A DNA stretch of 64,000 nt, filler included, from Rhabdomonas costata (Eukaryota), in NCBI GenBank assembly GCA_019059605.1. It is 47 parts of 47 records of this genome, joined end to end, with 100 filler letters (N's around TTAATTAATTAA, not from the genome) between each part and the next. Parts side by side here need not be neighbours in the genome. Positions count along the whole stretch, not along the records: positions 49,120 to 50,383 come from JAHMHO010021411.1; 46 more parts are not named here. One strand, 5' to 3'. The translations under genes and the position numbers were made by a program. Below, one piece after another: positions 36,694 through 62,654 of the stretch (the first letter of the stretch is position 1; every line of letters begins with the position of its first letter). Below the pieces are notes generated by a model. The model made no database searches. It was given only the letters and a program-made list of their open reading frames with translations, and was not told the origin of the DNA.

Positions 36694-36886
36694 CTGCGCC
36701 CCCCCCACACCACACACACAATGCAGACAAAACATACACCACAACCNNNNNNNNNNNNNNNNNNNNNNNNNNNNNNNNNNNNNNNNNNNNTTAATTAATT
36801 AANNNNNNNNNNNNNNNNNNNNNNNNNNNNNNNNNNNNNNNNNNNNGTGTGGTTTGCAAGGGTGACGAGGATGATAAGGAGCCGCC

Positions 36887-38111
36887 ATCGGGGGAAGAGC
36901 GTTTGGATCCTCTGCAGCGTGGGATACAGAAGCAGGAGCAGGTTTCGGTCGCCGTCTGTCAGGGGGCGGTACATCAACGATGATACCGCCAAGAATTCCG
37001 TCAATCGCCCTCTCCAGATTCCCGTTTGTAGTCCGAAGGGCTCGCTCTGCCAAGGAACGTGGTGTTCCCTCCAGAATCTCTAATATCTGCAACACTTTGG
37101 GGTCCTTCGGTGGAGGCGGCTCCTTATCATCCTCGTCACCCTTGCAAATCACGACAGAAGCACCGTTCGAGAGTACAAAGGCCAGGCTGCGTCGCTCACA
37201 GGCAAACGGAAACATCGCAGTTGCTTTGGTGCCTTCGGGCCGCACAACAGTGACCCTGTCAGGTTGGAGCTCCACCGTGTAAATGCCACGGGCGTTCCCG
37301 GAAACCACTGTCACGTCCAGTCCTCGGTCAAGGTTGCTCGTCAGCCGGTGAAACCCAAACCCCAACGTCGTGCTGCTGTTTCCGCCAGCCGAGAAGTCAA
37401 ACTCAAACCAGGTGCAGGTGCGAGGGACAGTGAGACAAGCAATTTTGGGCCCGTTCGACCCAAGGCCGGCATCCCTCTCATCCTCACCAATCGTAATGGC
37501 CGAGTGGCAGCGCTTGCGGTCAAAGCTTGGAACGGGCCCTAGTGCCGAAGTCTGCTCAGGAAGTCCCAAAACAACGGCGTTTGTCATGAGCATGGCGGTT
37601 CGAGTCGACGAAGAAATTGCAAGCCCGGACTTCGGATTCCGCTGCAGGCAAACCGCAAAGGTGTACAGACCCGACATGCTCTCCGTCGGGCACCGCTTTT
37701 CAATTTCCCCGTTTCGAAGAATTGTCAGTTCGCCAGGCTCAAGCCGAATCTCCAGAGATGTTCCAGCAGTAACGCTTTGACCTGGAATGAGTTTTACAAC
37801 CAGAGACAAATCTTCTGGATCCATGGAGCACAGGGGCTTCGCGGAAGCCCTTTCTTTTTCCACGGATTTCTCTGACAAAAGCCCGAACCAAACTAAAGCG
37901 CTCAGATGCTCCACTCTATAAAATGTCACGGCAAAAGCAGCGGGGCCATTAATATCGAAGCTGCGGTCCAGGACAAAGGTCCCCTCCGAGAAAGACGGAC
38001 CCCAGATTATGCCAGCTCCCCCACAGCGCAGACACCTGGAGTTGGGGTGCAGGCAGTCTGGGGAGGTGAATTGAACGGGCAGACGCTGGCCCTTCAATTC
38101 ACCTCCCCCCA
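36887..38111 (-). CDS. Protein with two SPRY/NHR-like beta domains followed by a UBA domain (partial)
   Basis: Contig-long open frame; UBA-like DPKVLQILEILEGTPRSLAERALRTTNGNLERAIDGIL; two units starting FTSPDCLHPNS and FDRKRCHSAITI; residues from 36886 downward come from a fold-back artefact. Confidence 0.7.
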
Positions 38112-47184: not shown

Positions 47185-49131
47185 TAACGCGAAGAACGCA
47201 AGGGCCCGCTGAAAGAGTCTGACGGCCGATGTTCAAAATTGCTGTCCGTGGCATTGCCCCTGAAGCAATTCATTGCACATGGACATGTCGCAATGAACCC
47301 CGAGACTATCTCATCTCGGTTGAGACCCTTCGCATTAAAATTCTGGATTGTTGTTGGAGCCCAGTAACTGTGAATGGAACTGGGTATGTACAAGAGCGCG
47401 TGTAGCGAAGTACATTTCGTGTGAAATCATTCTCGCATATCCCCAAGCGCAACGGAGGGCATAATGACGAAACCAACAACGTATGTATAAAAACCCACAT
47501 GCCTCTATACCCGGGGGCCCAGACAAATGGCTCTCGGTCGGAAGAAACAAAGCAAGAATAGAGAATCCCCCGGACACCACCTGCAGCACCCTGCCGTGGA
47601 CCTCCGTCCGCCCGCCACGCAGCAGCTGCACCACCACGCGGCACCCGTTTGGGTCNNNNNNNNNNNNNNNNNNNNNNNNNNNNNNNNNNNNNNNNNNNNT
47701 TAATTAATTAANNNNNNNNNNNNNNNNNNNNNNNNNNNNNNNNNNNNNNNNNNNNGGGGGGGTTGTTCGAGAAGTGCACTCTGTGTGGGTGTGGCCCTGA
47801 AACCAATGTCCTGGCGTACTGGTTCCGTGCTTCCCGTGCGCCAGGCGGGACCAACGTCACCCAGCTGTGGTACCCCAGCAACTCCAGCAAGGACTGCATC
47901 CCTGGACGAGGCTCGCCCTGGGTGGACATCATCCTCCGGCCGAAGCCCTTGTGGGCCCTGCTCGCTCGGGCGATGGATGCGGTGATTGAAAACAAGAAGG
48001 CTCGGCCCATGCCGTTTCACTTTTATCCTAACCGGCTGTGGGATGCCCCGAGGTGAGAGACAGGCCACGATGGGATCAAAGTGATAAGTAGTGCCGAGCC
48101 CGGGCGCGAGCGAACGGCTGCGGCTCAGCTGGGTTTTTGAAGCACTCAGGCCAGAGCGATATCAGCTGGAAACAGGCTTCTTTCGAATGCTAGTGTTTAC
48201 AATCTGTCAGTCGGTATTGTTTGGGGCGACTTTTTTTTTGCGTGACAGCTGTTCGTGTCCACTGGGGAACGAGAACCCAGGTGGTGGGTTTTAGTAAGAG
48301 GTTTCTTTAAGTAGGCTAACACCTTCAAATGCACTCGGAGAGCAAAACAATTCTTGTTGTCCTTTATGCTTTGATGCCATTGACGGACCAGATGTCTGTG
48401 CATGTAACTCCCGGATATTGGGCCAGAATTTGGGTGGTGTGGTTGTTGATGTTGAGGTTGTTGACCCTGCCTACTCTCGCAGCGGACGCGCTTTGGTGAC
48501 ACTGTATTGGGGCTGAAGCTTTTTCGGCCATAATAAACACTCTGTTCTGAGTGGATGTTGTCCCGGTGATTGCTGGCTGCACTCCAATGGAGAGTCCAGC
48601 CTCCGCTGCAGCAGTGGAGCCGCCTCCCCTCGTGGATGAGGATCCTTTTATGATTCCGCCATCATTGTACCACAAGTACCTTGCCCTGTTTGAGCGGCAC
48701 CGGGAGCAGCCTCTATGGATTTCCAGTATGCCGCTGCACGGCGAGGGATTCGGGAAAAGCGTCGCTCTGTAGTTCTTCCGGATTGTGTCTGTGTGTGTGG
48801 CAGCCAGGACGGCTTGCAGGTTGTGCACCGTTCTGGATTTGTGGTTTGATTTCCGCTTTTTGCGAGTTGTTTGCGAGTCCCCCCACCCCGTGATTCTTTG
48901 TTTCTGCTGTCCGTTCCATCCTGCTTGCGGCTTATTTGCATGGTTTTGTGTTTCCCCTTCACCAATGCTTCGTGCCGTTAATCGTTCACTCGCTTGCTGC
49001 GAGTGTTCCACACAAACCCNNNNNNNNNNNNNNNNNNNNNNNNNNNNNNNNNNNNNNNNNNNNTTAATTAATTAANNNNNNNNNNNNNNNNNNNNNNNNN
49101 NNNNNNNNNNNNNNNNNNNGGGTGTGGGGGT

Positions 49132-50383
49132 AGATTAAAATATTTAGGTGATTCAGTAATTCGTTTATTATTATCTGAATATTTATATTGGAGATATGAA
49201 GATCAAGATGAAGGATTTCTAACAAGTCTAAGAATAAAATTAGAAAATGGTATTATGTTATCTAAAATATCACAATCATTAAATTTACATGAATATGTTT
49301 TAGTTGGTGATTGTGCACAAGAAGATACTGACATTGTTTATAAATCAAATTATAAAACAATTATGAGTGAAAGTGTAAAAATTCTAATTGGTGTATTATA
49401 TATTGATAAAAAATTAGATGTATGTAGAACATTATTTATAAATATAATAGAAGATGAATTTGATATTGCTGATATATTATATAATAACATAAATTACAAA
49501 GATAAATTATTACAATATTATCATAAAATGAAATGGAATGATCCAATTTATATCGTAGTTGAAAATTCAATAAATAATTATTCACATGAATTTGTAATTG
49601 GTGTACAAAATGGAATCGATAAAACAATTATTAGTTTAGGAACAGGTACAAGTAAATTAAATGCTGAACAAGAAGCTGCAAAAAATGCATTACAATATTA
49701 TGATGTTGATTATACATCATCTCAAGTTATACAAACTAAAACTGATCATGATATAAATGAAATTATACCACATTTATTAAATATGAAAAATATACATATA
49801 ACAGAAGAATATATAATAAATTTATTTAAAACATATAGTGAAGATATTGAAATTGATGATTTACATTTATATCAAATAGCAATGACACATAATTCGTATA
49901 CACATAATATTAAAAAATTAAACATAGTAAAAAAATTCATTAAAAATACATTAATTGTTCCTTCTAAACTAAAATCAGTAATACCATTACAGAAACAATC
50001 ATATGAAAGATTAGAATTCTTAGGTGATTCTGTATTACGTCTAATTTTATCAGAATATATATATTTAAGATATAGTGAAAGTAATGAAGGATTTATGACA
50101 AAATTACGAACAAATATTGAAAATAATAAAATATTGAATATTTTAACAAAAAAAATAAATTTACATAATTATTTATTAATCTCTAAAATAGAAGAACAAC
50201 ATTGTGGACGTACTGGAAAAATAGATATATTAGGTGATTTATTTGAATCTTTTTTAGGTGCTACTTATATTAATACATCATATGATACATCATATAAATT
50301 TGTTAAAGAAATATACGAAAAAGAAATAGATTTTGCATCTATCATTTATAATGATACAAATTATAAAGATCAATTATTAAGAT
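49132..50383 (+). CDS. Tandem ribonuclease III (degenerate RNase III - dsRBD - intact RNase III - start of second dsRBD), giant-virus (Mimiviridae-like) type; truncated at both ends
   Basis: Frame is open from contig start: RLKYLGDS...; dsRBD NYKDKLLQ...GTGTSKLNAEQEAAKNAL; second domain SYERLEFLGDS...ILGDLFESFLGA; then NYKDQLLR; intronless and about 20% GC by eye. Confidence 0.92.
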
Positions 50384-54571: not shown

Positions 54572-55835
54572 TTGTTTTGGCGGAGCTGCACTATTGGAAG
54601 CTTCGCTTGACTCAACTGAGCGGGCTGGCCGACCAGCTCAAAGCACGGCAGTGCAAAACCGTCTTGCAGGTTTTGAATGCAGCAAAGGATCCGCTTTTGG
54701 TGCGGTTCCGGGAAATGGATGGCCGGGTCACTGACGTCCTAAACGAGGTAAAGGACAACGTGAAGTATTTATCTACCCTGGAGAAATTTGTTGAGCCAAT
54801 GTACGCCGCGGATCCGTGCCGAATGATTGCTGCCATTCCTGGGCTGATAAGTGCCATTCGGATAATGCACAGCATTGCCAGGCATTACAACACGGAAAAG
54901 ATGACGTCGCTTTTCACACGGATCACAAATCAGTTGATTGTGTGTTGCAGAAGCTACATCGAATCTGAAGGATCCATTTGGGAGCAAGACACTGGAGCTG
55001 TCATCACCAAGCTTGGGACCTGCATCAACCTGAATCAGGTGTACCAGAGCGAGTATCGACGCACCAAAACCGACTTGTCCTCCAACTTATTTGGGAAACA
55101 GTTCGACTTCAGTGAAGTTGCCATCTTCAGTCGATTTGACGTTTTTTGCGCGAGAGCCGAGAAGTTAATTGCCGTGCTTGAGACGACAATGCAATTTGCT
55201 ACTCTGGCCAAGTCTCCGATAGAGGGCATCGGACCGATCTGCACAAAGTTTGAGAACGTTTTCACCACTTTTCGTCGAAGAAACAATGCGGACGTTCTGG
55301 ATACTCGCAAAATTGCTTTTGATGCCGTGTACCACGAGTTTAGCAACGGCGTCGCGGACCTGTCTGTGGAGCTAGTGGTGTTTATCAACAATTGCTTTCT
55401 GACGGTTACGCAAACCACCAAGGCATTGGAGCTGCTCGCGCAGTTTCGGGCGGTGCTCAGCAAGGAACACGAATCTCTGCTCGAGGAAAAGCACCTCGCC
55501 ATTTTTCACAATTATGGCCGTGATTTAGAAATGCTTCGGTCCGTGTACGAGAAGAGCAAGGAGCGGCCCCCGATTCAGCGCAATATGCCTCCTGTTGCCT
55601 CTGCGATAGCATGGGCCAGGCAGTTGCTACGACAGATTGAGCAGCCCATGTTAAAGTTCCAGGAAACGCCCTCAATCTTGAAGTCCAAGGATGCGAAGAG
55701 GATAATTCGAAGTTACAACCAGCTTGCCAAGACGCTGCTGATGTTTGAGGCACGATGGTACGCAAAGTGGTGTGAGGGGATTAAAGCTGCCAAAGCAGGT
55801 CTCGGAGCTACGCTGCTAGTTGAGGACACGAATTC
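54572..55835 (+). CDS. Axonemal dynein heavy chain, N-terminal tail (DHC_N1), outer-arm gamma / DNAH5-8-like; truncated at both ends
   Basis: ELHYWK, NEVKDNVKYLSTLEKF, SIARHYNTEKMTSLFTRITNQLI, FDFSEVAIFSRFDVF, RNMPPVASAIAWARQL; contig-long open frame. Confidence 0.95.
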
Positions 55836-61285: not shown

Positions 61286-61391
61286 CAAANNNNNNNNNNN
61301 NNNNNNNNNNNNNNNNNNNNNNNNNNNNNNNNNTTAATTAATTAANNNNNNNNNNNNNNNNNNNNNNNNNNNNNNNNNNNNNNNNNNNNGG

Positions 61392-62654
61392 TCAAACTTT
61401 AACGGTCAAATTCCTTTTACATTTAAAACACCAACGAATAAATGGTGCAAGCCTAGAGAATGCTTTTTAGCTGTAAAACTTCGAATTGATCAAGTAGATG
61501 CTTCAGGTGTTCATAGTCCTCTTCAAGCTGTTTCTGGTGCTGGAACACCCTACATTTCCAAAAATCCCGTCTCTCTGCTCTTCTCCACTGGGAAAGTCTT
61601 AGTCAATGATAAGATGATATCCAATATGAACGAATTGCCTGCCACGAATACATTATTTCGTACAATTTATGATACAAAGAGCATGCAAGAAACGATAGAA
61701 TCAACTAATCCAATTTTGCCACAATCTCTGACTGACACTGTTAGCAATACAGCACGTCTTGCTTATGCTAATAAATGTCAGCTTCTATTAAATACGTTTC
61801 AAGAGCAGACTTTAACTTGGTCTTTACCATTTCCACTCTTTCAATCTAATGAATGGATTCCGCCACATACTAAAGTAGAAATTGATTTTAATGTAAACAC
61901 GAATTGGATAAATGAGATCTTATCTGTAGTTGGGACGTTTCCAGCTGGTGGTGTAGTTCCTTTATCATCAACTGGTACAAATTCCACTGTATCGAGCGTC
62001 GGAATAGGTGTGGACGATATCAGTCTTTGGCTTTATTATGTTACAGATGTAACACCTGTAAATATGGTTCATGAAATTCATCTTAAACAGTACTTTTCTC
62101 AAGTACATACGATTACATCTAATAATGAAGCATTCACATTGACACTTCCAAATGGAGGACGTAACATTACTCATATTTTAGCTTGCTTCTTACAAACTGG
62201 TAGGTCTGGAACTGTAAAAAAATCATCTAATGATTTTAGCTCTGGTTTTACAAATGCTGCAACAGAGGCTAAAATTACAACTGATGCTACAACTAAGCTT
62301 CAAATGATTAGATTCCAACTTGATAAAACATACCCAAATCCTGATTATAACTTATGTTTTGATTCATCTAAAAAAGATTCTATAGACGTGGGTAGAGCAT
62401 TCTACGATTTCATTAATAATGCTGATGCTAAATTTGATCGTAGTGGGAATGTTGTATCTATTCAACAATGGATTAATGAACCTATTTTCTGTTTTAAGGT
62501 AAATTCTGATGCTACTACTTATCACGAATCACTTCAAGTATATATTACGTTAGATTCTGGTTACACACCTGCTACGACTTCTTCTCAACTTTTGGTAGTA
62601 GCATTGTATGATGAAACATTGCGGCTACATTTCGATACAACATTCCCACAAACC
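61392..62654 (+). CDS. Putative double-jelly-roll major capsid protein of a Polinton/Maverick or Polinton-like virus (nearly complete, both ends cut)
   Basis: Frame open from 61392: NFNGQIPFTF...WCKPRECFLAVKLRI; NPVSLLFSTGKVLVNDKMIS; PLFQSNEWIPPHTKVEIDF; VDDISLWL; YPNPDYNLCF; RAFYDF; VSIQQWINEPIFCFKV; LLVVALYDETLRL. Motif order fits Polinton-type capsids; intronless and AT-richer than host contigs. Confidence 0.75.

What the first reader, a model, noticed from the sequence alone, without database searches (positions are those of the whole stretch)
49132..50383. Giant-virus-like tandem RNase III with one dead and one live domain: a possible single-chain dsRNA nickase
Seen in sequence: one intronless, very AT-rich frame encodes RNaseIII(a)-dsRBD-RNaseIII(b)-dsRBD start, which looks like a head-to-tail duplication of a whole RNase III gene. 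Domain b keeps all acidic catalytic positions (ERLEFLGDS; D-L-F-E). Domain a has Lys at both catalytic glutamates (RLKYLGDS; ESVK in place of DLFE). Established: RNase III acts as a dimer in which each domain cuts one strand; E-to-K at the second motif (E. coli E117K) gives a protein that binds but does not cleave; Mimiviridae encode two-domain RNase III proteins. Inference: an intramolecular a/b dimer would cut only one strand of an RNA hairpin, which could serve hairpin-directed 3-prime end processing of viral mRNAs or suppression of host RNAi. The dsRBD between the two domains differs from the Dicer/Drosha layout. Caveat: the first Lys codon lies only about 6 nt from the amplification-primer tail.
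Basis: partly seen in the sequence, partly recalled or inferred. Interest (0 to 1): 0.8.

Follow-up and report, generated by a model that had tools for sequence, protein, structure and literature searches.

The report
Giant-virus tandem RNase III, dead half first
This 1.26-kb AT-rich contig is a fragment of a giant-virus-type double RNase III in which the first nuclease half has lost its metal-binding residues and the second is intact, the mirror image of the published Mimivirus hairpin-nicking enzyme.

Summary
Window 49132-50382 is one open 417-codon frame on a separate 1264-bp, 21% GC contig. It encodes RNase III(a)-dsRBD-RNase III(b)-start of a second dsRBD.

- Domain b keeps all six acidic active-site residues.
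- Domain a has Lys at the E41 and E117 positions (E. coli numbering) and Glu at D114.
- The changes are real. The primer tail is G/T-only and ends 6 nt before the AAA codon. All 9 full-length relatives (49-55% identical, metagenomic) carry the same changes.

The idea of a single-chain RNase III with one live site that nicks mRNA 3' hairpins is already published for Mimivirus R343 and Megavirus Mg559 (Priet 2015). There the N-terminal domain is the live one. In my survey, 69 of 83 complete tandem proteins have that polarity. Eleven, six of them this clade, have the reverse.

AlphaFold models of the fragment and of a full-length relative pack a against b as in the Drosha and Dicer intramolecular dimers. 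The tree favours a separate duplication for this clade, but AU tests do not exclude the alternatives. No genomic context could be obtained.

Verdict: a new variant of a known kind, of moderate interest.

The parts
49120..49131 (.). G/T-only amplification-primer tail (12 nt). It is not template sequence and it overwrites the codon at the E38 position of domain a.
   Evidence: 35 of 47 contigs start with a G/T-only run of 8 nt or more, and 29 of 47 end with an A/C-only run of 8 nt or more.
49132..50382 (+). Open reading frame of 417 codons, cut at both contig ends. It is a fragment of a tandem RNase III of about 550-640 aa.
   Evidence: Translation has no stop. Full-length relatives of 553-640 aa cover 84-100% of it.
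49132..49488 (+). RNase III domain a (residues 1-119, N-terminus missing), predicted to be catalytically dead.
   Evidence: HMM domain 1-119 with signature -KDEEK at positions E38/E41/D45/E65/D114/E117. Alignment to 3n3w.
49138..49140 (+). AAA, Lys at the E41 position of domain a.
   Evidence: Conserved in 9 of 9 relatives.
49369..49380 (+). GAA AGT GTA AAA = E-S-V-K. Glu sits at the D114 position and Lys at the E117 position of domain a.
   Evidence: Relatives read GELIK.
49495..49698 (+). dsRBD 1 (residues 122-189), between the two nuclease domains. Its calculated pI of about 6.1 is unusually low.
   Evidence: Pfam dsrm E 4.9e-9. pI.
49699..49938 (+). Linker plus the N-terminal extension of the second module (residues 190-269).
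   Evidence: In alignment A1, the stretch ahead of domain b repeats the N-terminal extension seen ahead of domain a and in single-domain relatives.
49939..50355 (+). RNase III domain b (residues 270-408) with all six acidic residues intact: E292, E295, D299, E319, D369, E372 (codons 50005-07, 50014-16, 50026-28, 50086-88, 50236-38, 50245-47).
   Evidence: Signature EEDEDE. Alignment to 3n3w. Codons read.
50356..50382 (+). First 9 residues of dsRBD 2 (NDTNYKDQLLR region). The contig ends here.
   Evidence: Relatives continue into a complete second dsRBD.

Best explanation
The contig is a fragment of a tandem RNase III gene of an uncultured giant virus (Mimiviridae-like, order Imitervirales by affinity). 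It sits in a whole-genome-amplified assembly of a flagellated eukaryote.

The full protein is two complete RNase III modules in one chain: N-extension, nuclease domain, dsRBD, twice over.

Inferred mechanism:
- The two nuclease domains pair within the chain into the usual RNase III pseudo-dimer.
- Only the site built by domain b can bind Mg2+ and cut.
- In domain a, the Lys side chains at the E41 and E117 positions occupy the former metal site. They probably still hold the RNA backbone, as E. coli E117K does.
- The enzyme therefore cuts one strand of an RNA stem.

The most likely job is the one shown for Mimivirus R343: cutting the palindromic hairpin at the 3' end of viral transcripts so that the viral poly(A) polymerase can add a tail.

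The difference from R343 is that the dead domain is the first one, not the second. Most likely this is because the clade duplicated its RNase III gene separately and then lost the other copy's active site.

Shown: the architecture, the residue states, their conservation and the predicted intramolecular pairing. Inferred: monomeric action, nicking, and the mRNA 3'-end role.
For: **Architecture.** Two RNase III domains with a dsRBD between them. 100% query coverage by 500-670 aa tandem proteins, including Tupanvirus and Moumouvirus RNase III.

**Residue states.**
- Domain a has K/E/K at E41/D114/E117 and domain b is intact.
- 9 of 9 full-length clade members share this.
- E41, D45 and E117 tolerate no substitution in E. 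coli. E117K binds dsRNA but does not cleave it (PMC10037077, passages read).

**The dead domain is under constraint.** Mean pairwise identity in the clade is 0.70 for domain a and 0.71 for domain b, against 0.55 for the linker.

**One live and one dead domain is the rule in the family.** Of 83 complete tandem proteins, 69 are a-live/b-dead, 11 a-dead/b-live, 2 both live and 1 both dead.

**Structure.**
- The AF2 model of the window fragment has pLDDT 88.4 and pTM 0.82.
- It superposes on the Drosha RIIIDa+RIIIDb core (5b16 Z 27.3, rmsd 3.4 A, 271 residues; 6lxd Z 24.7, rmsd 2.5 A, 265 residues) across model residues 1-417.
- Single bacterial nuclease domains match only residues 221-414 (143-158 residues, Z 16-19.5).
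- The full-length relative P0005 gives the same picture (6v5b Z 28.9, rmsd 3.4 A, 368 residues).

**Function precedent.** Priet 2015 report tandem R343/Mg559 with an intact N-terminal domain and a second domain lacking metal ligands. They propose a monomer nick, and R343 cuts inside the hairpin in vitro.

**Separate duplication.** In the careful tree, this clade's a and b domains are sisters (UFBoot 97 / SH-aLRT 88), nested among single-domain proteins. Holding all 23 a domains as one clade is rejected (delta lnL 303, p-AU 1.5e-79).
Against: **No biochemistry and no genomic context.**
- The contig holds nothing but the ORF, and no whole genome is held.
- No DNA of clade relatives could be fetched.
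- A neighbouring poly(A) polymerase and 3' hairpins are therefore untested.

**AF2 cannot tell intra-chain from inter-chain pairing.** It was trained on Drosha and Dicer, so it cannot exclude b/b pairing between two chains.

**In vitro data on R343 are not a clean single nick.** R343 gave two products, 34 and 51 nt, and its site differed from the in vivo site. Even the prototype is not a proven clean nickase.

**The separate-duplication claim is not secured.**
- Holding this clade's a domain with Mimivirus-type a costs only 8.8 lnL (p-AU 0.219).
- Holding it with Mimivirus-type b costs 7.4 lnL (p-AU 0.256).
- An earlier quick tree was a poor optimum.
- Sisterhood of a and b could also come from intragenic conversion or shared AT-driven amino-acid composition.

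**The dsRBDs are less basic than in other lineages.** In this clade they are near neutral (pI 6.1-6.9 and 7.0-8.7) against 8.8-9.9 in six other tandem proteins and above 10 reported for Mimivirus. RNA binding may therefore differ.

**Viral origin is by affinity only.** None of the five nearest relatives carries a name.
Confidence: 0.6

Rival explanations
1. The protein works as an intermolecular dimer. Two chains pair through their live b domains and make ordinary two-strand RNase III cuts. Domain a and its dsRBD would then be an RNA-binding or regulatory appendage.
For: Single-domain relatives (170 of 175 with a complete live site) presumably act as homodimers, so b retains a dimer-competent surface. 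R343 gave two cleavage products in vitro.
Against: Both AF2 models pack a against b with high confidence (pTM 0.82; superpositions). Domain a is as conserved as b across the clade, including the signature-motif region that forms the dimer interface (alignment A2). The recurrent one-live-one-dead pattern (80 of 83) is what a pseudo-dimer with one site predicts.
Confidence: 0.12
2. It is a counter-defence enzyme that binds or degrades dsRNA or siRNA precursors to blunt host RNAi or dsRNA sensing, rather than an mRNA 3'-end processing factor.
For: RNase III proteins of some other large DNA and RNA viruses are reported as RNAi suppressors (recalled, not checked here). The window's bulk is a eukaryote (dynein heavy chain) that could have RNAi.
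Against: A single active site is a poor design for destroying duplexes. The only experimentally studied member of the tandem family acts on transcript 3' hairpins. Bodo saltans virus and Marseilleviridae papers assign their RNase III to the same role (passages read).
Confidence: 0.1
3. The gene is not from a free virus. It would be a giant-virus-derived insertion (endogenous viral element) or a horizontally acquired gene in the eukaryote's genome, possibly decaying, and the dead domain a would reflect relaxed selection.
For: The contig comes from a eukaryotic assembly and carries no flanks. Endogenous giant-virus elements are common (abstracts listed).
Against: GC content is 21% against about 50% for the other contigs. 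The frame is intact over 417 codons. The same K/E/K state is fixed in 9 of 9 relatives from other sources, one on a 490-kb contig. Domain a is as conserved as b, so it is not decaying.
Confidence: 0.1
4. Artefact: the tandem layout is a whole-genome-amplification chimera, or the Lys residues are primer or amplification errors.
For: The assembly is made of amplified fragments with degenerate primer tails. The first Lys is 6 nt from the tail.
Against: Full-length colinear relatives have the same layout and the same substitutions. A G/T-only primer cannot write AAA. The second Lys is 247 nt into the contig.
Confidence: 0.02

Closest known systems
Mimivirus R343 / Megavirus chilensis Mg559 tandem RNase III (Priet et al. 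2015, PMC4402537)
   Same: One chain holds two RNase III domains, each followed by a dsRBD. Only one domain has the full set of metal ligands. The proposed mode is an intramolecular pseudo-dimer that nicks transcript 3' hairpins. The named Tupanvirus and Moumouvirus homologues align over 100% of the fragment.
   Different: Polarity is reversed: there a is live and b dead (typically E41Q plus D114G), here a is dead (E41K, D114E, E117K) and b live. Identity is only 31-33%. The tree favours a separate duplication, though this is not proven. The dsRBDs are near neutral rather than strongly basic. Gene-cluster context is unknown.
Drosha and Dicer (class 3/4 eukaryotic RNase III)
   Same: Two RNase III domains in one chain form an intramolecular dimer. 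The models superpose on that core at Z 25-29.
   Different: Dicer and Drosha have no dsRBD between the two nuclease domains. Both of their sites are active and make a two-strand cut. They carry PAZ, helicase, platform or other large N-terminal parts that are absent here (Pfam shows only RNase III and dsrm). Sequence identity is 20-25%.
E. coli RNase III E117K (rnc70) / A. aeolicus E110K, and artificial one-dead-subunit heterodimers
   Same: The same Glu-to-Lys change at the same position gives a protein that binds dsRNA without cleaving it (PMC10037077; PDB 1rc7 title). One functional subunit suffices for cleavage in engineered heterodimers (only the titles of Conrad 2002 and Meng & Nicholson 2008 were seen, in the reference list; their content is recalled).
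   Different: Those are laboratory mutants of a homodimeric single-domain enzyme. Here the change is natural, conserved, joined by E41K and D114E, and fused in one chain to a live partner.
Trypanosome editosome endonucleases KREN1-3 with KREPB6-8 partners
   Same: An enzyme-pseudoenzyme pairing of one catalytic and one non-catalytic RNase III domain is proposed to cut only one strand of a duplex (PMC6800513, abstract and passages read).
   Different: Those are two separate polypeptides inside a large complex. They are mitochondrial, unrelated in lineage, and act on mRNA/gRNA duplexes.
Single-domain RNase III of large DNA viruses (about 300 aa metagenomic relatives; Marseilleviridae NMV_212 / MEL_219)
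   Same: They are the nearest sequence neighbours of both halves (40-49% identity over half of the query; sister group in the tree at 91/77). They have the same N-extension, nuclease domain and dsRBD module.
   Different: They have one module with a live site (170 of 175), so they are presumably homodimers that cut both strands.

Membership tests
RNase III superfamily (Pfam PF00636 / PF14622) | RNase III domain profile match above the curated cut-off | tested here: met
   PF14622 scores 123.9 bits (cut-off 35) and PF00636 118.5 bits (cut-off 27), with two stretches each.
RNase III superfamily (Pfam PF00636 / PF14622) | Signature motif and acidic metal ligands (E38, E41, D45, E65, D114, E117) | tested here: met
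   Met for domain b (EEDEDE). Not met for domain a (-KDEEK), which is therefore a pseudo-nuclease domain.
Mimivirus R343-type tandem RNase III (single-chain hairpin nickase) | Two RNase III domains, each followed by a dsRBD, in one polypeptide | tested here: met
   The second dsRBD is only begun in the window and is complete in 9 of 9 relatives.
Mimivirus R343-type tandem RNase III (single-chain hairpin nickase) | Exactly one domain retains the metal ligands | tested here: met
Mimivirus R343-type tandem RNase III (single-chain hairpin nickase) | The live domain is the N-terminal one (as described by Priet 2015) | tested here: not met
   Here the N-terminal domain is dead and the C-terminal one live. 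69 of 83 surveyed tandem proteins have the Mimivirus polarity.
Mimivirus R343-type tandem RNase III (single-chain hairpin nickase) | Descent from the same duplication (orthology of a with a and b with b) | tested here: inconclusive
   The ML tree puts this clade's a and b together (97/88). AU does not reject a with Mimivirus a (p 0.219) or a with Mimivirus b (p 0.256).
Mimivirus R343-type tandem RNase III (single-chain hairpin nickase) | Strongly basic dsRBDs (pI above 10 reported) | tested here: not met
   dsRBD1 of the window protein has pI 6.1. The clade ranges over 6.1-6.9 and 7.0-8.7, against 8.8-9.9 in six other tandem proteins. The calculation used fixed 76-residue slices, so it is approximate.
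Mimivirus R343-type tandem RNase III (single-chain hairpin nickase) | Gene cluster with the viral poly(A) polymerase and the R342-like gene; hairpins at transcript 3' ends | not testable with these tools
   The contig is 1264 bp, no genome is held, and no DNA of clade relatives was found.
Mimivirus R343-type tandem RNase III (single-chain hairpin nickase) | Metal-dependent cleavage inside an RNA hairpin | not testable with these tools
   This needs a biochemical assay.
Dicer / Drosha class | Intramolecular RIIIDa-RIIIDb dimer | tested here: met
   Met by prediction only. Models superpose on the Drosha and Dicer cores at Z 25-29 over 261-380 residues.
Dicer / Drosha class | Adjacent RIIIDs with a single C-terminal dsRBD, accessory PAZ, helicase or platform domains, and both sites active | tested here: not met
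   A dsrm lies between the two nuclease domains and there are no other Pfam domains. One site is dead.
Class 1 bacterial-type RNase III (homodimer of RIIID-dsRBD) | Single nuclease domain per chain | tested here: not met
   Two domains per chain.

The most novel reading that the evidence does not exclude
Single-chain, one-site RNase III nickases have arisen several times independently in giant viruses. Each time a whole RNase III gene was duplicated head to tail, and then either copy lost its active site. This clade would be one such independent origin in which the first copy died. Its paired Glu-to-Lys changes would act as a built-in replacement for the metal ions. The flipped polarity, together with its unusually non-basic dsRBDs, could place the cut on the other arm of the transcript hairpin or require a different positioning partner.
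Probability: 0.35. Interest if true: 0.6.

Novelty: new variant of a known kind. Interest (0 to 1): 0.42.

Why it matters
Giant viruses of the Mimivirus group end their mRNAs at RNA hairpins instead of sequence signals. The only enzyme known to read those hairpins is a double RNase III with one working half. This finding shows that an uncultured lineage uses the mirror-image arrangement. It also suggests that the one-live-one-dead design recurs in several separately duplicated lineages. That gives a natural test of what fixes the position and strand of the cut, a point Priet et al. left open. It also supplies natural pseudo-nuclease domains for studying how a dead RNase III half guides a live one. 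The practical consequence is small: annotation pipelines that call these proteins plain "ribonuclease III" miss the asymmetry.

Tried and rejected
**Genome and reads**
- Whole genome of the window: none is held.

**Searches for DNA of clade relatives**
- Viral contigs with the protein and with the clade alignment: no relatives.
- Metagenome contigs: 395 relatives, 80 kept. All have matches of about 0.5-0.95 kb, which means single-domain genes. None belongs to the clade.
- Genome contigs: one weak hit at 31% identity in a Clostridia MAG, not followed.
- The genome search by locus handles: the records are not held.
- The listing of cluster members: no names or accessions for the clade.

**Neighbourhood of single-domain relatives**
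- I looked for a poly(A) polymerase next to the single-domain relatives in 35 loci of 9 kb or more.
- Pfam on 10 conserved neighbours gave TFIIS, ERCC4, patatin, thioredoxin, DUF5759 and a 1842-aa protein with Helicase_C.
- Two frequent neighbours without a Pfam hit had no PDB sequence match.
- No PAP was recognised, but four of the ten neighbours remain unidentified. This is no evidence of absence, and these loci are not the clade.

**Phylogeny**
- The quick 102-row tree proved a poor optimum: a constrained tree scored 35 lnL higher. I discarded it in favour of the careful 56-row tree.

**Not run**
- Complex prediction. RNase III halves would pass by likeness to solved dimers, and the result would not separate a/b from b/b pairing.

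**Literature**
- Searches found only Priet 2015 describing the asymmetry.
- None described the reversed polarity.
- Supplements were not seen.
Full report
**What the window is.**
- The 64-kb window is not one locus. It is 47 contigs of about 1265 bp joined by N...TTAATTAATTAA...N spacers.
- 35 of 47 contigs begin with a G/T-only run of 8 nt or more, and 29 of 47 end with an A/C-only run of 8 nt or more. These look like degenerate-primer tails from whole-genome amplification.
- Most contigs are about 50% GC. One encodes a dynein heavy chain N-terminal region (PF08385, E 1e-119), so the bulk is a flagellated eukaryote.
- The finding sits on contig 49120-50383, the GC outlier at 21%.
- No whole genome is held for the window.

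**The observation.**
- From 49132 the frame is open for 417 codons to the contig end. Other frames give at most 53-63 aa.
- Pfam finds two RNase III domains (PF14622 E 5.8e-36; PF00636 E 2.5e-34) with a dsRBD at residues 122-189 between them.
- The last nine residues start a second dsRBD, which is complete in relatives.
- In the HMMER alignment to C. jejuni RNase III (3n3w), domain b matches all acidic positions. Domain a has Lys at the E41 position, Asp at D45, Glu at E65, Glu at D114 and Lys at E117. My profile-based extraction gives the same result: '-KDEEK' against 'EEDEDE'.
- According to a deep mutational scan of E. coli rnc, E41, D45 and E117 tolerate no substitution. E117K binds dsRNA but cannot cleave it (PMC10037077, passages read).

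**Not an artefact.**
- The tail at 49120-49131 is 12 nt of G and T only. The first Lys codon is AAA at 49138-49140, which such a primer cannot write. The second Lys lies 247 nt into the contig.
- The five nearest database proteins (49-55% identical, 553-640 aa, all metagenomic and unnamed) and four further members of their clusters all read [DE]RLKFLGD and GELIK[ST]F in domain a. All read YERLEFLGD and GD[IV]FE in domain b. That is 9 of 9.
- The relatives are colinear with the fragment, so the tandem layout is not an amplification chimera.
- The residue at the E38 position of domain a is hidden under the tail. Relatives have D or E there.
- Reads could not be consulted.

**What family it belongs to.**
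- The protein search returned 2035 hits at E of 1e-3 or better.
- Proteins of about 500-670 aa that cover the whole fragment include 'putative ribonuclease 3 [Tupanvirus deep ocean]' and 'ribonuclease III [Acanthamoeba polyphaga moumouvirus]' at 31-33% identity.
- Proteins of about 300 aa match either half at 40-49% identity.
- PDB sequence matches are single-domain bacterial RNase III, plus Drosha and Dicer domain by domain.
- Long metagenomic loci carrying the single-domain relatives hold TFIIS, ERCC4, patatin and thioredoxin genes next to them. This fits large DNA viruses.
- The giant-virus affinity is therefore supported, although no member of the immediate clade carries a name.

**What is already known.**
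- Priet et al. [quoted passage not shown] - The authors propose that the monomer recognises the transcript 3' hairpin as a homodimer would, but nicks it instead of excising it, allowing polyadenylation inside the hairpin.
- They show metal-dependent cleavage inside the hairpin by R343. It gave two products, of 34 and 51 nt, and the in vitro site was not identical to the in vivo site.
- They suggest the neighbouring gene R342 as a missing 'ruler'.
The Bodo saltans virus and Noumeavirus papers assign their RNase III genes to the same role (passages read).

**What is different here: polarity.** I collected the 264 proteins returned by the two searches, located RNase III domains with a profile built from them, and read the six active-site columns.

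| Class (83 complete tandem proteins of 88 found) | Count |
|---|---|
| First domain live, second dead (Mimivirus arrangement, typically E41Q plus D114G) | 69 |
| First domain dead, second live | 11 |
| Both live (P0101, P0134) | 2 |
| Both dead (P0175) | 1 |

- The 11 reversed cases are the window protein with its 5 relatives, a second small clade (P0137, P0147, P0186), and P0229 and P0204.
- Five tandem proteins were incomplete at these columns.
- Of the single-domain proteins, 170 are live, 4 dead and 1 incomplete.
- 'Live' means E41, D45, D114 and E117 are all canonical.
- The sample is ranked by similarity to the query, so these are not population frequencies.
- Lys at both the E41 and E117 positions occurs only in this clade and, in its second domain, in P0131.
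- In five searches of the held library I found no paper describing the reversed arrangement. Supplements were closed.

**Is the dead half still doing something?**
- Within the clade, domain a is as conserved as domain b: mean pairwise identity 0.70 against 0.71, with the linker at 0.55.
- The signature-motif region of domain a is invariant across the six sequences apart from the catalytic changes.
- This argues for a retained structural role rather than decay.

**Predicted structure.**
- AlphaFold2 with an 82-sequence family alignment gives pLDDT 88.4 and pTM 0.82 for the window fragment and the same values for the full-length relative P0005.
- The fragment model superposes on the RIIIDa+RIIIDb core of Drosha across model residues 1-417 (5b16 Z 27.3, rmsd 3.4 A, 271 residues; 6lxd Z 24.7, rmsd 2.5 A, 265 residues), and on the Dicer cores as well.
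- Bacterial nuclease domains match only residues 221-414, over 143-158 residues at Z 16-19.5.
- P0005 behaves the same way: 6v5b Z 28.9, rmsd 3.4 A, 368 residues; Giardia Dicer Z 22.6, rmsd 2.7 A, 285 residues.
- An alignment nearly twice the size of one nuclease domain at about 3 A means the two halves are placed as an intramolecular dimer.
- This is a prediction by a method trained on such dimers. It cannot exclude pairing between chains.

**Origin of the arrangement.**
- In a careful ML tree of 56 modules (23 tandem proteins split into a and b, plus 10 single-domain proteins), this clade's a and b are sisters (UFBoot 97 / SH-aLRT 88). They sit next to a group of single-domain proteins (91/77).
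- Several other tandem lineages also pair their own a with their own b: P0008 100/98, P0131 100/99, the P0009 group 100/99, P0229/P0101/P0134 100/97, and the P0137 group 94/78.
- Mimivirus-type a and b form two separate clades.
- Forcing all 23 a domains into one clade costs 303 lnL (p-AU 1.5e-79). That group was defined after the tree had been seen, but it is the natural single-duplication hypothesis.
- One ancient duplication therefore cannot explain the family. Repeated duplication, or repeated homogenisation, is needed.
- For this clade specifically the question stays open. Holding its a with Mimivirus-type a costs 8.8 lnL (p-AU 0.219). Holding its a with Mimivirus-type b, the 'permutation' reading, costs 7.4 lnL (p-AU 0.256). 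Neither is rejected.
- An earlier quick tree on 102 rows was a poor optimum and is not used.
- The whole module, including the N-terminal extension seen in single-domain relatives, is repeated.

**A further difference.** Calculated on 76-residue slices, the dsRBDs of this clade are near neutral: pI 6.1-6.9 for the first and 7.0-8.7 for the second. Six other tandem proteins give 8.8-9.9, and Priet et al. report above 10. Whether this weakens RNA binding or reflects reliance on a partner is unknown.

**Mechanism proposed.**
- Shown: the architecture, the residue states, their conservation, and the predicted a/b pairing.
- Inferred: the chain acts as a monomeric pseudo-dimer with a single Mg2+ site, on domain b.
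- Inferred: the two Lys of domain a fill the former metal pocket against the retained D45 and the Glu at D114, and keep contact with the uncut strand.
- Inferred: the enzyme nicks one arm of the 3' hairpin of viral transcripts for polyadenylation.
- I put 0.6 on this overall. I put about 0.95 on the dead/live tandem description itself.
- Rivals: intermolecular b/b dimers with ordinary cuts (0.12), a dsRNA or RNAi counter-defence role (0.10), an endogenous viral element rather than a free virus, which concerns origin and not mechanism (0.10), and artefact (0.02).

**Limits.**
- There is no genomic context for the clade, no reads and no biochemistry.
- The poly(A) polymerase neighbourhood and the hairpin rule could not be tested.
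- In the loci of single-domain relatives no PAP was recognised, but several conserved neighbours remain unidentified.

**Verdict.** The concept is already published for Mimivirus and Megavirus. What is new is a conserved mirror-image version, with hints that one-site tandem RNase IIIs arose repeatedly. It is a new variant of a known kind, of moderate interest (0.42).

Noticed in passing
window 61390-62654: A 35% GC contig (the others are about 50%) with one frame open end to end (421 aa) and no Pfam hit at E of 0.01 or better. A protein-language-model look-up places it nearest to all-viral clusters, one with PF16903 Capsid_N in 24% of members and one with a DJR-like domain in 10%. The recognition value of 1808 is below the tool's 2300 guide, so this is only a lead. 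It may be a double-jelly-roll capsid of a virophage or polinton-like virus, which would be notable beside a Mimivirus-like gene in the same assembly.
   Followed up: partly
window 1-64000: The window is 47 unrelated contigs of about 1265 bp, sorted by length and joined by spacers. 35 of 47 carry G/T-only 5' tails and 29 of 47 carry A/C-only 3' tails of 8 nt or more. Features that span spacers are meaningless, and the first and last 10-13 nt of each contig are primer sequence.
   Followed up: yes
window 54572-55835: An intron-free 420-aa stretch of a dynein heavy chain (PF08385, E 1e-119). Contig 36847-38111 (minus strand) holds a weak UBA-domain protein. The bulk of the assembly is a flagellated eukaryote of about 50% GC.
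   Followed up: partly
P0003, P0004, P0006, P0007 (relatives), domain a between the E65 and D114 positions: Four of the five nearest relatives carry a low-complexity insertion in the dead domain, of about 30 to 70 residues in alignment A1. It splits that domain into two HMM hits. The window protein and P0005 lack it.
   Followed up: no
P0131 (694 aa, JGI/ENA) domain b; P0101 and P0134: P0131 has the Mimivirus polarity, but its dead second domain carries exactly the same E-K-D-E-E-K pattern as this clade's first domain. Its own a and b are sisters in the tree (100/99), so the pattern appears convergent. P0101 and P0134 are tandem proteins with both sites intact and may represent the pre-decay state.
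   Followed up: partly
L001-L080, the 35 loci of 9 kb or more: In 30 of the 35 long metagenomic loci, the single-domain RNase III gene lies near a very large ORF (1842 aa in L019:2717-8242) whose only Pfam hit is Helicase_C. This is a conserved neighbour of unknown role.
   Followed up: partly
window 49495-49698 and clade relatives: The dsRBDs of this clade are near neutral (pI 6.1-8.7), against 8.8-9.9 in six other tandem RNase III proteins. In the alignment the usual basic SKKKAEQ stretch reads SKL-AEQ or TKLQAEQ in the clade.
   Followed up: partly
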